Positions 36,001 to 42,000 of a stretch of DNA of 64,000 nucleotides are shown piece after piece. The stretch comes from Nitrospirales bacterium (GTDB taxonomy: Bacteria; Nitrospirota; Nitrospiria; Nitrospirales; UBA8639). Location of the stretch: assembly GCA_963422365.1 (NCBI GenBank), contig OY729426.1:1088001-1152000 (forward strand). The letters are read 5' to 3'. Every line of letters begins with the position of its first letter. Positions within the stretch are counted from its first letter, which is position 1. The position numbers are program-made.

Positions 36001-39000
36001 ACATATGCAGAATGGTGCGGAGGGCACCCTGTTGCTCCCATCGTCGAAACGACGTGGTCACCTTGGTGCGTAAGGCTGCAACGGATCCTGCGCGCTTGAG
36101 GCGTTGCAGCAACTCGATGTCTTCCATCAAGGGCACGTCGGCAAACCCGCCTAGGTCGTCAAACACGGCGCGACGAACGAAAATCGCCTGATCCCCTGTG
36201 GCAATGCCGGACCAGCGTGATCGCCAATTCATCAGACGACTGATGAGCCAGGCCCACCCGCGGTCGTCTTCGAATCGTACGTCGAATCGTCCCCCCACAT
36301 ACTTGGGATTCTCCAAGACTCGGCCGATCTCATGTCGCGTCTCTGGTGGAAGAAGCGTGTCGGCATGCAGAAAAAGCAGAACGTCGGATCGAGTTTCCTC
36401 TACGCCGGCATTCATTTGTTTGGCACGCCCCTGCTCCGATGCAATAACCTTTGCGGGTTGCCGGCTGAGCCCATGCAACTGGTTCTGCGCAATGCAAACC
36501 GTCTGGTCCCGGCTGCCACCATCCACGAGGATCACTTCATTCAATCGAAGCTGTCGAAGAGCGAGGAGCGTCCGTGGCAGGGCTCGTTCTTCGTTCAAGG
36601 TTGGAATCACGACGGCGATTGAAGTGGGCATGTTGCGTTGCTGTCCGGCAGGATGAGTGAACAAGGAAGAGTCCTGGGCGATGAGAAAAAAACGGCCCTT
36701 CCTCACGGTTGCCCCATCACTCAATCTCTGGTTCAAATCCGCTACGACGGCTTGGATGGTTGCTTGGGATTCTGAAACATGAAATAGACCACCAAAGCAA
36801 TGGTGCCCCAGTAGATAACGTATTTATGCCAAAAGAGCACTTCGCCAAGTTGGATGAATGCCAAGATGCAGAGGAGGGAAAAGGCAATCACCCCGTACCG
36901 AACAGCGGGGATTGTCACGGAAGAATAGGCCCAAAGGGCCAGACCCGCAAAATACAAGATCATGGGAAAGATTGAAATCTCCGCGCCGATACCGACAGAC
37001 AGAAAAACCTGAATAAAACCGATGAACACCATAGCGGAGCCCACCATCTTCATGGCCACTTTCATTTGCAGGGCTTCGTGTGCTTCTTGGTCCACTTCCG
37101 ATTTCGCATGTGGCGGTCCCACGGGGATACCGGGCACCTGACGTCTGGATGGTTCAGGCGTCTCGGAAAGGTTGGGAGGGTCTGGGATTTGCTGTTTTGT
37201 CTCTTGTGCCATGAGCTACCACTTAAAATGTTTACTGAGCGTGAGCCCTTGCTGATGATAGTTGGACCCAATGGAGGCCCCATACAGGTGTTCTGGTAGT
37301 TCTAACATTTTCTCATACACGACTTTGAAAAACGTCTGGCCGTCGTGAATCAGGAACGGCACATCATGAGGTCTGACTTCGAGCACAACCTGTGTCCCTT
37401 TTCGTGGCCCGCTGCCGACCCCAAAGCCTGGATCGAAGAACCCGGCATAGTGGGTGCGTAATTCACCACACGCAGCCTCATAGGCCACCATTTCAGTAGC
37501 ATAGCCTTCCGGCACTTTAATTCGTTCTTTTGAAGCAAGGATATAAAATTCCTGTGGTTCAAGTATGAGGGAATCACTCGTGCGTCGATAAATCGGTTCC
37601 CAAAAATCTTGAGCCGTGTAATGACCAATTTTCGAGAGATCAATGACTTGGCTGTTTTTTTTTGCCCGATAGCCAATCACGGAGTCGGGAGCCGAATGAC
37701 CTTGAAGATCAATTCGTAAAAATAGTCCATTGTCCACGCGAATCTGTCGTGAAGGTACCGGTCCATTGCCACTAGGAGGATCATCGTTGTGATAGAGCAA
37801 ATTTTCTTCTCGATATAGTTCTCGAAGTTTCTTGTCTGAAACTGTGGGACGCCGACGCCCAGTGATCAAACGCAGTTGATTCAAGGACAATCCTGTTTGA
37901 ACACGAACGGTAAAAGAGAGTGGCACAATTTCCAGATACAGGGGACCGTGGTATCCCGACCGTACTTCGTCAAACCCGACGTTCAAGTCGGTAATCATTC
38001 GAGTGAAGATATCCAGGCGTCCTGTCGAACTTTTTGGATTAGCTCGTCCTCGAATCGATTTGGGAAGGCGTAATTTTTCCAACAGCGGGACCAGATACAC
38101 ATGCCCTTTTTCCAAAATAGCCCCTTCTTCTAAGTCTAAGTCTATCTCATACATCACCAAGTTGTCTTTATAGAGATCGAGCACATTCAAACGAGTCGTG
38201 ATTTCTGATCGTTCGGGATGAAAGCTGCTCAAGAGGCGATACGCTTTTGTGCCTAGTCGTAAATCCAAGCTTGCGGGCTGAATTTGCTCATCGTCAATAG
38301 GACGGTCGGCAGGAATGGATCCTTCGACAATCAGTTGTTTGAGTTGGCGATCAGGCAGAATGCCTTGCTTACGAGGAGAAGCCATCGTTACCCGTCCATG
38401 GCCCCGTTGCTGCAAAGTCCCCCAAGCCTCGACGCGCCCACCATGGGCAGTTCACGCGTGCGGCCTTGGTCGGGCTGTGGGTAGTGATAGGTCTTGTTTT
38501 CGTAGTTTTTCAGCACGGCACCGTTTTCATCAAGGTTCAGCAAATAGTCATTGGGTAAAAGCGGAATTTTTCCTCCGCCTCCTGGGGCATCGATCACAAA
38601 ATGGGGAACGGCCATGCCGCTGGTATGCCCTTGGAGCGCCTGAATGATTTGTAGCCCCGTTTCCACGGTGGTGCGGAAATGGTTGGTCCCTTTGGTCAGG
38701 TCGGCCTGGTACAAATAATAGGGCTTCACGCGGGCCAGAAGGAGTTGATGCATGAGCTGTTTCATGATTTCCGGATCATCGTTCACCCCTTTCAGCAACA
38801 CCGTTTGGGCACCCAGCGGCACACCGGCGTCGGCCAAGCGCCCACAGGCTTCTTTGACTTCTGGGGTGAGTTCAGCAGGATGATTGAAATGCAAATTCAT
38901 ATAAATCGGATGATACCGTTTGACCAGCTCGCACAGTTGGGGGGTGATGCGTTGCGGGAGTGTCCCTGGTACGCGTGAACCGAATCGGATGAGTTCGAGA

Positions 39001-42000
39001 TGGGGGATCGTTCGGAGTGCCTTTAAAAGGCGTTCGATCAAGTGATCGGGCAACAACAAGGGATCGCCGCCCGAGAGGATGATATCCCGAACTTCGGTAT
39101 GTTCGCGGAGGTAGGCGACGGCTTGATCCAATTCGCCTTTCTTCAAAAACCCCGGTTTTCCGACTAACCGCTTGCGAGTACAAAATCGGCAATAGATCGG
39201 GCATTGATTCGTGACCATCAACAGCGCGCGGTCCGGATAGCGATGGACCAAGTGTGGGACGGGACTATCGGTGTCTTCTTCCAAGGGGTCGTCTGGTGCG
39301 TCAAAGTCCTCCATCTCAATGTCCTCTGGAACAACCTGTTTCCAAATGGCGTCCCCTTTTTCTTTGATCGTGGCGAGCACCGTGGGTGTGATGCGCATAG
39401 GATAAGGGCCCACGATCTGTTCCACTTCTTTGGGATCCACGCCGAGATGTTTCGCTAAATCTTTAGGTTTGGTGATGCTCTCGGCTAGGATACGTTTCCA
39501 ATCATCCATCTGCATTCCTCGTCAATAGGGGTGAACGTGTGGGTTGGGTGGTTCGACATCAGACAGCGAGACCCCCCTCGTGGGCCGGGTTGCTCGATGA
39601 GGTCTCGATTGGGCTCTCGACGGGTTCCGGCCCATCCGGGGTGGGCCCCTTCAGGGTCGAAGCCAATGCGTCAAGGTGGTTGAGAATGTCTTGCGTTTCC
39701 TTCAGGACGGTGTCTCCATCAACCAAGACAGGAACATCATATGGTCCCGATAACTCAAATATTTGTTTTCTGAACGGACGGACCGTGGGAACCATAACAC
39801 TTTTAGACTCGATCTCCAACTCATCCAGTTGGTGACGAACCAGGGTGCATTCCGGGCACCATTCAGTATTACAACGTTATTGAGTGCCTTTTCTCTTATG
39901 CGTTTCACGATCCATTCGGGCAGGCACGGGGATATGCCTTATGGCGCTTGACTTCTCTGGCGTTCCCGACGTTTTTAATCGGGAATCCATCCTTCTGTGT
40001 TCCTAAGAATCTTCTGGATTCCCGCTTCCGCGGGAATGACAGAAGGGAAAGAGGCGGCTCTACGGAGCCTGTAGCGCGCATGGTGCCAGGATGGCATCGC
40101 GCATGCCATGAATCACCTTTTTCTCCTTAGGGCAAACGGTCGCCAAAATTCCGTGAAGGGTCACCTCATCTCCAGACACAAAATAATAGGGTGACAGTCG
40201 AGCCCGCCCCTCCATGGGTTCCAGTCGTCCGGTGTGCGCATTGAAATAGGTCATCCCGTACCGTCGGCCCTTGTGAAATGGTTGGAAGACATAGGGTGTC
40301 GAGGCAAAGGCATCCAGCGCGTGCTCCAATTTTTCCGCCCATGCGGACTGCGGAATATCATGCCCAACGATCACCCCACGGCTGCCCCAAGCCAGTTCCG
40401 AAAAGCCTGAAGGCTTCAACACGCAGTGTCGCTGCTTTTGTGTCGCATGGGTGAATTGTCGCCAATCTGACACGGCCTTTCCACCAAGCGTGAGATTCGG
40501 GATGACTGCTGATGGAGGAAGAGGACGAGGGTCGACGACCCAGGTTTTGGGCATGAGCCGTCCGAGACTATGAAAGACCTCCACCCCTAGCGCGTCGGAC
40601 CAAAACCCTTCCAGCATAGGGTGATGCAAGAGCGCGAAGGCCAACTTCTCTTCCATCCAGGGCTTATACGGTGGTGTCACGCTCACCTGCCCTCTTTGGG
40701 CCTTGGACATGAGTAATGCAGATTCTGGAATATTCTCGAGATCAAAGAGTTCAAAAAATCGATAGATGAACGAAACAGGCTGTTCCCCGAAAGGGGTAGA
40801 CGTGAACAACGTCTGTTCAGTGAACCGAAGATCGCGAGGATGGACACAATAGGTTTCCAGCCCAGCGGTTCGTAGCTGGCAAGCCACCCAGACCATTTCA
40901 TTCCGGTACTCCTCAGCCTCATCAGACACCACGATGGCGAGACAGCCCGCTCCCTCGCCGAGTCGGCCTTGGAACAGCTTTGCAAAGCCTTCAATTATGC
41001 CGTTACGACCGCCAATGAGAGAATCTCCTAAGGCGCCGTAGGCGGAGGATAAGCTTCCCGTGATCCCAATGCCGCCTGGGACAGCGTCCAGTTCCGTGAT
41101 CGTCATGCCCGCCTCAGTCGGAATCACATCAGGGCGAATAACCCGAGGAATTGCCTCACGAAATCGTTTCATGCGAGCATAGTCCAACAGGGCTTCCGGC
41201 TTGCCTTGGTCGAGATAGTGGTGAACCCAGCCTGGTTGAGTGCCTTTGAGACTATCGAGATACAGTCGATTGAGTGCTTTAGAGAACGACCATAGCTGGG
41301 GGCCTAGGTTCTCAAAGAAGGAAACTTCGCTTTCAGTCAATTGAAACGGGAAGGGTGAGAGCCGCCATGCAGGTGCTGACTGTAGGGAAAAGATCCCTGA
41401 CGCTTGAAGGGCCTGTTGGACAGAACGGCATCGCTGACTCTCTTTGCGGAGGGAAGCCGTTGGAGCAGGAGATAAGGCAGAAGGGGCCGATGCGTCCGAA
41501 CACCTCTGAATCATGGGGCATGTCGCCGAGAGGTGGGCCATGAGAAAGTGATACCGGGATAGATCGTAATAATGGAGTGTGCCTGAATGGAGGATGGATA
41601 TTGGCAGAGCTCGTAGGATGACAACAGACTCAAATGATACCATGACCTCTTTGAGCGAGACAAGCGACGATCCTCATGGCGTGCCTGGTCACGATTCCCT
41701 GTAGGGCGGCATCTTGAATGTATTTGTAGGGCCGCGCATCTCATGCGGCTCAGAAGAGGCCGGATGAGATCCCGCCCTACAAAGAGATCTTGTGCCGTAT
41801 CGAGAACGGTTCTTGTCCATCGTCGGGACCCCACGTATAATAGATCCTCACAGGCGAACCCTCCATCAAGTGGCCTCATCAATCGAAGCATGCCCTCGAC
41901 TCCGATCTGGAAGGAAGCAGACAACACGTGAAAGGACACGAAATCGACATCGAACAATATTGGATCAACGAAGAGCCGTTTTATGAAGAGATCAACGGCG

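What a model noticed while it worked through the whole genome (the two positions that open the first line are those of the whole stretch)
37216..41541. An unnamed ATP-grasp ligase with glutathione-synthetase fold, a glutaredoxin and an orphan lysine 2,3-aminomutase form a [...]
g01151 (493 aa, no Pfam/NCBIfam/PDB sequence hit) folds like eukaryote-type glutathione synthetase and starts an operon with a CPxC glutaredoxin (mis-started in the gene call), a true lysine 2,3-aminomutase and dCTP deaminase. The operon is fixed in Nitrospirales and recurs in Nitrospinaceae, which lack the usual beta-lysine user EpmA and lack GshB. The ligase is the candidate consumer of beta-lysine (EF-P Lys34 or a small thiol/peptide).
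Evidence so far: Single copy in 31 of 31 order genomes; KamA follows in 24 of 24 loci at 81-97% identity, glutaredoxin in 23, also in 2 of 2 Nitrospinaceae loci. Model pLDDT 78, Foldseek to glutathione synthetases E 1e-15, TM 0.63. KamA keeps both lysine-binding Asp and the PLP Lys of 2A5H. EpmA over cut-off in 1 of 61 phylum genomes; GshB 0 of 31; GCS2 5 of 31, not here, although GrxD-BolA and a GST-type reductase are present. EF-P has PGKG. 651 clusters at E<=1e-10.
(Added by a program. Inside this text positions count along the whole contig: contig position 1,088,001 is position 1 of the stretch shown here. "Call 12" and the like, gene names such as g00115 and contig names such as C1 are that model's own, and its searches are not shown. 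The text may have been shortened before it was handed on; [...] marks where a part breaks off. The agent that wrote the report below was given it as the finding of a first reader that could run no searches.)

Follow-up and report, generated by a model that had tools for sequence, protein, structure and literature searches.

The report
Unnamed beta-lysine ligase, not for EF-P
An unannotated bond-forming enzyme travels with a beta-lysine-making enzyme through several bacterial phyla, including nitrite oxidisers, so it probably makes an undescribed beta-lysine amide, but its target is unlikely to be translation factor EF-P or a glutathione-like thiol.

Summary
The ligase is real: 493 aa, no Pfam, NCBIfam or PDB sequence hit, model pLDDT 93. 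Its fold belongs to the whole glutathione/glutathionylspermidine-synthetase clan, not to glutathione synthetase specifically. 166 of 168 ligase-carrying genomes in four samples hold a KamA. The genes are adjacent in Nitrospirota, Nitrospinota, Chloroflexota and Bacillota, and one KamA clade came only from ligase genomes. The EF-P idea fails as a family function: 7 of 7 Chloroflexota carriers have arginine, not lysine, at the EF-P tip; 44 of 49 Latescibacterota carriers already have EpmA; PGKG also occurs where both genes are missing. A glutathione analogue is unlikely because no GshA was found. The glutaredoxin here is a true pseudogene, not a mis-called start. Best reading: the ligase makes an acyl-phosphate on a common cellular carboxylate and adds beta-lysine. 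The acceptor is unknown; the peptidoglycan D-glutamate is the boldest candidate. Verrucomicrobiota genomes could not be tested. This scan noted the same module before on other DNA (ten notes seen).

The parts
40060..41541 (-). Unnamed amide ligase of the glutathione/glutathionylspermidine-synthetase (circularly permuted ATP-grasp) clan, 493 aa; core part
   Evidence: conserved R136 D138 E150 D152 K299 K376. An upstream in-frame ATG at 41643 gives 527 aa, but close relatives align from residue 1 of the 493-aa form.
40011..40047 (.). Short palindromic REP-like repeat between ligase and glutaredoxin; not part of the function
   Evidence: matches many unrelated contigs; 7 copies with up to 3 mismatches in the genome
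39559..39889 (-). Glutaredoxin/GST-N-like pseudogene (CPEC, YDVP); accessory, intact in most Nitrospirota relatives
   Evidence: same letters in contigs of runs X3, X4, X5
38388..39515 (-). Short KamA-family radical-SAM/PLP aminomutase, 375 aa, lysine-type active site; core part
   Evidence: only KamA in the genome
37216..38385 (-). dCTP deaminase (two-domain, PRK07559); conserved neighbour in Nitrospirota only
   Evidence: starts 2 nt after the KamA stop
36742..37212 (-). 156-aa hydrophobic, probably membrane protein of no known family; Nitrospirota neighbour
35927..36736 (-). TIGR04283 glycosyltransferase (ORF bounds as listed); downstream neighbour, not core
   Evidence: in 40 of 55 Nitrospirota loci
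35176..36027 (-). TIGR04282 CofC-like protein (ORF bounds as listed); downstream neighbour, not core
   Evidence: in 38 of 55 Nitrospirota loci

Best explanation
A two-gene module. KamA turns L-lysine into beta-lysine (inferred from residues). The ligase uses ATP to make an acyl-phosphate on the carboxylate of an acceptor (inferred from fold and conserved R136, D138, E150, D152, K299, K376), and an amine of beta-lysine attacks it, giving acceptor-CO-NH-beta-lysine plus ADP and phosphate (polarity inferred by analogy with the clan). The acceptor is a common cell component that needs no third dedicated gene: a small soluble peptide or dicarboxylate (about 0.2), a peptidoglycan-precursor D-glutamate (about 0.12) or a protein carboxylate (about 0.15). 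It is not EF-P Lys34 and not gamma-Glu-Cys. Glutaredoxin, dCTP deaminase and the other genes are lineage-specific neighbours. Shown: genes, fold model, conservation, co-occurrence. Inferred: all chemistry. That the ligase uses the KamA product in some form I put at about 0.8.
For: KamA in ligase genomes: Nitrospirota 45 of 45 against 4 of 66 others; Chloroflexota 41 of 41 against 93 of 310; Latescibacterota 48 of 49 against 15 of 22; a Bacillota class 32 of 33 against 36 of 58, the 33rd having a contig-edge KamA fragment beside the ligase. The 4 ligase-less Nitrospirota KamAs each have another partner: AblB, EpmA, or two Ddl-like ligases plus a GNAT in two genomes. Adjacent in 52 of 55 Nitrospirota, 3 of 3 Nitrospinaceae, 15 of 30 Chloroflexota and 26 of 30 Bacillota loci. 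A KamA clade with 100% local support holds 22 rows, all from ligase genomes of six phyla, five of them unlinked, and none of 16 ligase-less rows. Ligase-adjacent KamAs keep D272 in 146 of 146 and D309 in 143 of 143. Top structural matches all join a small amine to a peptide or diacid carboxylate. Cp1B R139/D141/E163/N165, needed for activity, match the conserved RxD and ExD motif here.
Against: No product is known and no activity was measured. In an unselected metagenome sample KamA lay near the ligase in only 6 of 119 loci; the usual neighbours were ruvA, proA, marC and prfB, and these genomes could not be searched for KamA. KamA is common without the ligase in Bacillota and Latescibacterota, so co-occurrence there is weak evidence. 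Carriers are clustered kin: a handful of independent lineages, not 168 events. Latescibacterota KamA is a distant long type that may serve EpmA alone. The profile alignment to E. coli GspS was not significant (probability 0.3), so residue matching rests on motifs. The family has Asp where the clan has Asn (D152) and two conserved Arg (R446, R448) of unknown role.
Confidence: 0.5

Rival explanations
1. Beta-lysine is the acyl donor, or both donor and acceptor: the ligase makes beta-lysyl amides of a small amine or short beta-lysine oligomers (a polyamine-like cation or solute).
For: Explains why only two genes travel together. Many conserved acidic residues (E208, E215, E264, D267, E297, E298, D395) could hold two cationic substrates.
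Against: Characterised clan members activate peptides or diacids, not a free diamino acid (glutathione synthetases recalled). Conserved R261, K474, K475 and H478 suggest an anionic substrate too (role inferred).
Confidence: 0.14
2. One reading: the ligase replaces EpmA and puts beta-lysine on EF-P Lys34.
For: No EpmA in the 45 Nitrospirota carriers nor in 11 of 11 Poribacteria, Nitrospinaceae, Chloroflexota and Bacillota carriers tested, nor in one Dormiibacterota carrier. The own EF-P has the Lys. The gene is single-copy and sits among housekeeping genes.
Against: EF-P tip is Arg (KMGRGG, KIGRGG, KIGRGS) in 7 of 7 Chloroflexota carriers; five have a ligase-kamA operon and only one EF-P N-domain. 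EpmA is over cut-off in 44 of 49 Latescibacterota carriers against 4 of 22 non-carriers. 24 Nitrospirota without ligase, KamA and EpmA have the same PGKGG loop; carriers also show PAKGG and PGKGP. efp lies in 0 of 365 ligase-holding loci (redundant set, median 4.4 kb). EpmA uses (R)-beta-lysine from EpmB, while this KamA scores 430 bits to AblA and 237 to EpmB.
Confidence: 0.07
3. The ligase makes a glutathione analogue, gamma-Glu-Cys-beta-lysine, used by the neighbouring glutaredoxin.
For: Best Foldseek hits are glutathione and homoglutathione synthetases; the latter joins beta-alanine. A CPxC glutaredoxin-like gene follows in 28 of 30 order loci.
Against: No gamma-Glu-Cys ligase found: GCS2 in 1 of 5 carriers and not in the own genome, PF04262 in 0 of 5, PF08886 in 0 of 5 with a silent control. 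The glutaredoxin is broken here and in the closest relative, missing in 2 more of 30 loci, and absent from Chloroflexota and Bacillota loci.
Confidence: 0.06
4. The KamA acts on another basic amino acid (arginine or ornithine), so the ligase handles a different beta-amino acid.
For: Below the lysine aminomutase cut-off and lacks the C-terminal part of 2A5H.
Against: Ranks AblA 430, glutamate type 397, arginine type 321 bits; both side-chain Asp residues are invariant.
Confidence: 0.08
5. The two enzymes are co-inherited or co-regulated but work on separate substrates; the ligase is a general peptide-amine ligase like YgiC.
For: Unlinked in Poribacteria, Latescibacterota, one Nitrospirota family and most metagenome loci. 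YgiC is the top VIA match.
Against: Adjacency with at least three different KamA clades and the near all-or-none pattern in Nitrospirota are hard to get without a shared metabolite.
Confidence: 0.12

Closest known systems
Eukaryote-type glutathione and homoglutathione synthetases (PDB 8FBZ, 2HGS, 3KAL, 1M0W)
   Same: Fold over most of the chain (TM 0.61-0.64); RxD and ExN-like motifs; homoglutathione synthetase adds a beta-amino acid.
   Different: 12-14% identity; no Pfam match; no gamma-Glu-Cys ligase found in most carriers tested; paired with KamA.
Glutathionylspermidine synthetase and the peptide-spermidine ligases YgiC/YjfC (PDB 2IO7, 7UKA, 7UK6)
   Same: Highest VIA Z scores (26.5, 25.0); join a polycationic amine to a peptide carboxylate; YgiC's natural substrate is also unknown.
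   Different: PF03738 hit only weakly in 2 of 71 members; amine predicted to be beta-lysine, supplied by a linked enzyme.
Cp1B, fungal E-64 ATP-grasp ligase (PDB 9CJN)
   Same: Z 25.4 over 403 residues; same four catalytic positions; shows that the fold takes substrates unrelated to glutathione.
   Different: Fungal secondary metabolism, hydrophobic alpha-amino acid nucleophiles; 14% identity.
EpmB/EpmA beta-lysylation of EF-P
   Same: A lysine aminomutase plus a ligase that consumes beta-lysine.
   Different: EpmA is a lysyl-tRNA-synthetase paralogue acting through adenylation (recalled); this ligase coexists with EpmA and occurs with Arg-type EF-P.
AblA/AblB (N-epsilon-acetyl-beta-lysine) and KamA plus Ddl-like ligase clusters
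   Same: KamA with a downstream partner that uses its product; both seen in ligase-less Nitrospirota.
   Different: Partner is a GNAT or a classical Ddl-type ATP-grasp, not this family.

Membership tests
Glutathione/glutathionylspermidine-synthetase clan (circularly permuted ATP-grasp) | Clan fold over the whole chain | tested here: met
   Foldseek E 2e-15, TM 0.64; ten clan entries at Z 21-26.5, next at 11.9
Glutathione/glutathionylspermidine-synthetase clan (circularly permuted ATP-grasp) | RxD and Ex(N/D) acyl-phosphate/Mg residues and ATP-binding lysines | tested here: met
   R136, D138, E150, D152, K299, K376 at 96-99% in 337 sequences; same spacing as Cp1B essentials; aligned to GspS R316/D318/E330/N332 in a non-significant alignment
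Glutathione/glutathionylspermidine-synthetase clan (circularly permuted ATP-grasp) | ATP-dependent amide formation with ADP release | not testable with these tools
   needs an assay
Eukaryote-type glutathione synthetase (PF03199/PF03917) | Match to the family models | tested here: not met
   0 families for the protein; none of 71 members; only an ESM feature neighbour at rank 22
Eukaryote-type glutathione synthetase (PF03199/PF03917) | A gamma-Glu-Cys ligase in the genome | tested here: not met
   own genome: no GCS2, no PF04262; PF08886 none, but its control was silent
GspS/YgiC family (PF03738) and CP_ATPgrasp_2 (PF14403) | Match over curated cut-off | tested here: not met
   no hit for the protein; weak hits in 2 and 4 of 71 members, best E 4e-4 and 2.5e-3
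Lysine 2,3-aminomutase (KamA/AblA) | CxxxCxxC, substrate Arg, two side-chain Asp, PLP Lys as in 2A5H | tested here: met
   C105/C109/C112, R114, D272, D309, K316; roles of the 2A5H residues are recalled
Lysine 2,3-aminomutase (KamA/AblA) | TIGR03820 equivalog cut-off | tested here: not met
   430 against 525.4 bits; over the subfamily cut-off TIGR00238; alignment to 2A5H ends at its residue 368 of 416
Lysine 2,3-aminomutase (KamA/AblA) | Makes beta-lysine; stereochemistry | not testable with these tools
   needs an assay
EF-P beta-lysylation system (EpmA/EpmB type) | EF-P with Lys at the loop tip in all carriers | tested here: not met
   Arg in 7 of 7 Chloroflexota carriers; Lys in 21 other carriers; single EF-P N-domain in 5 of 5
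EF-P beta-lysylation system (EpmA/EpmB type) | A replacement ligase should exclude EpmA | tested here: not met
   both in 44 of 49 Latescibacterota carriers; exclusive in Nitrospirota, where EpmA occurs once
EF-P beta-lysylation system (EpmA/EpmB type) | efp near the modification genes | tested here: not met
   0 of 365 ligase-holding loci
AblA/AblB osmolyte pathway | AblB acetyltransferase beside the aminomutase | tested here: not met
   flanking genes are the glutaredoxin remnant and dcd; the whole genome was not searched for AblB
Glutaredoxin/GST-N-like proteins | CxxC and cis-Pro motif, family match | tested here: met
   CPEC, YDVP; GST_N_3 E 3e-10
Glutaredoxin/GST-N-like proteins | Intact reading frame in this genome | tested here: not met
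   no in-frame start between the TAA and CPEC

The most novel reading that the evidence does not exclude
The ligase attaches beta-lysine to the free alpha-carboxylate of D-glutamate in the peptidoglycan stem peptide, a new cell-wall modification that parallels the cadaverine and putrescine arms of Negativicutes (PMC10628300, passages). It fits a clan that binds gamma-glutamyl peptides and adds amines, an acceptor present in almost all bacteria, single-copy housekeeping behaviour, and murG-like and lgt neighbours in the Bacillota class. It would give nitrite oxidisers, sponge symbionts and probably Verrucomicrobiota an undescribed wall chemistry. No direct evidence was obtained.
Probability: 0.12. 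Interest if true: 0.88.

Novelty: new variant of a known kind. Interest (0 to 1): 0.62.

Why it matters
A family of at least 651 clusters has no database model, yet is kept in single copy across whole lineages, including nearly all Nitrospirales. It points to a use of beta-lysine beyond EF-P tagging, the acetylated osmolyte, lysine fermentation and antibiotics. Two genes seem to suffice, so the product can be found by expressing them in a laboratory strain. This work narrows the search: it removes EF-P and a glutathione analogue as the general acceptor and shows that the glutaredoxin is dispensable.

Tried and rejected
Complex prediction of ligase with EF-P gave no verdict (score 0.00); it is not used as evidence. 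No fused forms of 864-2465 aa were found (weak evidence); three longer members had no family in their extensions. No relatives in viral contigs; one weak plasmid hit at 22%. No RNA holder was listed, so expression is untested. Promoter and terminator scans were at chance level. Profile alignments to E. coli GspS and YgiC were not significant. A third conserved gene was sought and not found: LarE follows the ligase in 20 of 20 Latescibacterota loci but is in 0 of 55 Nitrospirota loci; BluB, heme and cytochrome genes, lgt, murG-like, ruvA, proA and prfB are each confined to one lineage or context. Verrucomicrobiota genomes could not be reached, because the one genome-collection scan returned the 80 closest loci. 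Literature searches found no description of this family or pairing; the library lacks most subscription papers, and Iyer et al. 2009 on ATP-grasp amidoligases was not held, so an earlier mention there is not excluded. PMC3435265 (passages) reports no glutathione system in Leptospirillum; I take family f15 to be Leptospirillum-like from recall only, so this is not counted. No supplements were read.

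
Full report
What is there. On the minus strand lie a 493-aa ORF at 41541-40060, a glutaredoxin-like remnant at about 39889-39559, a KamA-family protein at 39515-38388, a dCTP deaminase at 38385-37216, a 156-aa hydrophobic protein and a TIGR04283/TIGR04282 pair. The 493-aa protein has no Pfam or NCBIfam match and no PDB sequence match even as a profile of 71 sequences. 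It has 651 relatives at E<=1e-10 among 50%-identity clusters and occurs in 60 of 61 order genomes.

Fold and chemistry. The model has pLDDT 93 and pTM 0.91. Foldseek ranks human glutathione synthetase first (E 2e-15, TM 0.64), followed by homoglutathione synthetase, Cp1B, YjfC, YgiC and GspS. The independent wide search ranks YgiC (Z 26.5), Cp1B (25.4) and GspS (25.0) above homoglutathione synthetase (23.3), with a drop to 11.9 outside the clan. So the protein belongs to the clan, at 10-15% identity to all members, and is no closer to glutathione synthetase than to the others. R136, D138, E150, D152, K299 and K376 are kept in 96-99% of 337 sequences, a redundant set. Cp1B needs R139, D141, E163 and N165 for activity (PMC12568646, section 8 read). 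A profile alignment placed the four residues on GspS R316, D318, E330 and N332, but it was not significant. In the characterised members the activated group is a peptide or diacid carboxylate and the nucleophile a small amine (PMC12568646; PMC11762307 passages; glutathione synthetases recalled). That favours beta-lysine as nucleophile, the opposite of what EF-P tagging needs. This is analogy, not a test.

The KamA. It matches 2A5H at E 4e-108 and keeps the cluster cysteines, R114, D272, D309 and K316. It scores 430 bits to lysine aminomutase AblA, under the 525 cut-off, then 397 to the glutamate type, 321 to the arginine type and 237 to EpmB. Ligase-adjacent KamAs keep D272 in 146 of 146 and D309 in 143 of 143 covered sequences. 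Lysine is the most likely substrate; it is not proven.

Ligase and KamA belong together. In 111 Nitrospirota genomes the ligase is in 45 and absent family-wise from 66. All 45 hold KamA; only 4 of the 66 do, and each of those has another partner: AblB, EpmA, or two Ddl-like ligases with a GNAT in two cases. In Chloroflexota 41 of 41 full-length carriers hold KamA against 93 of 310 others (one background genome, G406, is flagged unpublished). In Latescibacterota it is 48 of 49 against 15 of 22. In a Bacillota class it is 32 of 33 against 36 of 58, and the 33rd has a KamA fragment beside the ligase at a contig edge. The genes are adjacent in 52 of 55 Nitrospirota loci (the 3 misses end at contig edges), 3 of 3 Nitrospinaceae, 2 of 2 Chloroflexota and 1 of 2 Bacillota loci, but in 0 of 15 Poribacteria, 0 of 2 Latescibacterota and 0 of 1 Dormiibacterota loci. 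Larger samples gave 15 of 30 Chloroflexota and 26 of 30 Bacillota loci. Two Poribacteria genomes carry an unlinked KamA 54-56% identical to the window's. In a FastTree of 53 KamA rows that I chose (24 adjacent, 13 unlinked in carriers, 16 from non-carriers), one clade with 100% local support holds 22 rows, all from carriers in six phyla, and no non-carrier row; the ligase also sits beside KamAs of other clades. Against this: carriers are clustered kin, KamA is common without the ligase in two of the four samples, and in a metagenome sample KamA was near the ligase in only 6 of 119 loci, whose usual neighbours were ruvA, proA, marC and prfB. I take most of those to be Verrucomicrobiota from the Atlas taxa; their genomes could not be searched.

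EF-P is not the general acceptor. The own genome has one efp with PGKGG and no EpmA; the best EpmA-model hit is a 501-aa lysyl-tRNA-synthetase-like protein. But I read 51 of the 110 Nitrospirota EF-Ps (30 best-scoring, 20 chosen, the own one) and 12 from other phyla. PGKGG also stands in 24 genomes of families without ligase, KamA or EpmA, so it tells nothing; carriers also show PAKGG and PGKGP. All 7 Chloroflexota carriers examined have Arg at the tip. Five of them have a ligase-kamA operon and a single EF-P N-domain at E<=0.01. EpmA acylates the epsilon-amine of Lys34 (PMC12856214, passages and first part of section 10), which these proteins lack; arginine-type EF-Ps that work unmodified are known (PMC12931083, abstract and passages). 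In Latescibacterota 44 of 49 carriers have EpmA over cut-off against 4 of 22 non-carriers (one checked against NCBIfam). No ligase-holding locus contains efp (0 of 365). A Nitrospirota-only role on EF-P is not excluded.

A glutathione analogue is unlikely. No gamma-Glu-Cys ligase family was found in the own genome; over carriers, GCS2 was in 1 of 5, PF04262 in 0 of 5 and PF08886 in 0 of 5 with a silent control. The glutaredoxin hits 28 of 30 order loci, but it is absent from two, and in the window and the closest relative it has lost its start. In the window the start codon is changed and two bases are missing relative to congeners, leaving a stop before CPEC. Contigs of three runs from three samples and two studies carry the same letters; they are near-identical and may include this DNA's source, and the raw-read run did not cover the site. 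The gene is therefore a pseudogene while ligase and KamA stay intact. It was not seen in Chloroflexota or Bacillota loci. dCTP deaminase and the later genes are Nitrospirota neighbours.

How it most likely works. KamA supplies beta-lysine. The ligase phosphorylates an acceptor carboxylate with ATP and joins beta-lysine to it. No third gene travels with the pair, so the acceptor should be something most cells already have. A small peptide or diacid, a protein carboxylate and the peptidoglycan D-glutamate all fit. The last has a precedent in the polyamine arms of Negativicutes (PMC10628300, passages) and weak contextual support from murG-like and lgt neighbours in one class. I give the overall mechanism 0.5, and use of the KamA product in any form about 0.8.

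Novelty. Searches of an open-access library found no account of the family or the pairing; Iyer et al. 2009 could not be read. PMC12324291, PMC12419801 and PMC9811515 (passages) were not relevant, except that the last notes beta-lysine added by NRPS parts in viomycin. It is a new kind of partner for a known enzyme, within a known ligase clan. Earlier notes of this scan describe the same module in other genomes; I had formed the same reading before seeing them, and they are not independent support.

Noticed in passing
window 40011-40047: Palindromic REP-like repeat between ligase and glutaredoxin; 7 copies in the genome and many in other organisms of the same runs.
   Followed up: partly
L002 (G022), L008 (G014), L013 (G058), L033, L035: The glutaredoxin has lost its start by a different lesion in the closest relative and gave no hit in four other family loci: repeated loss in this small-genome lineage.
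   Followed up: partly
window 37216-38385: dcd has 47% GC against 53% for the genome and is only 66-82% identical to close relatives (KamA 90-97%), yet 83% to the more distant L073; possibly replaced by transfer.
   Followed up: no
L362-L381; window 30333-31265: LarE (TIGR00268) lies beside the ligase in 20 of 20 Latescibacterota loci; the window has a LarE about 9 kb downstream, outside the conserved block.
   Followed up: partly
L347, L348, L349, L352; L340, L341: Unusual EF-P loops: KMQQRAP in three ligase-less Nitrospirota families, and KPAKGG in family f14.
   Followed up: no
L123, L357, L409: Latescibacterota EpmA of 417 aa with an N-terminal extension of about 100 aa, unlinked to efp and KamA.
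   Followed up: no
L555 (G643), L120, L184, L186: KamA with Ddl-like ATP-grasp ligases; in G643 the order is Ddl-like, kamA, this ligase.
   Followed up: no
L172, L173, L178; L423-L452: Tetrapyrrole neighbours: BluB inside the f15 operon with heme genes divergent; cytochrome-maturation-like genes or a precorrin-dehydrogenase-like gene beside Chloroflexota ligases (some labels recalled).
   Followed up: no
L560 (G064): In this carrier the only KamA is of the long type and lies near a gene that looks like the lysine-fermentation cleavage enzyme (label recalled).
   Followed up: no
window 32637-33173, 41928-42740, 44730-46343: A coiled-coil plus HARE-HTH protein, a CbbQ/NirQ AAA ATPase and a B12 radical-SAM protein like slr0320 (under cut-off) flank the region.
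   Followed up: no
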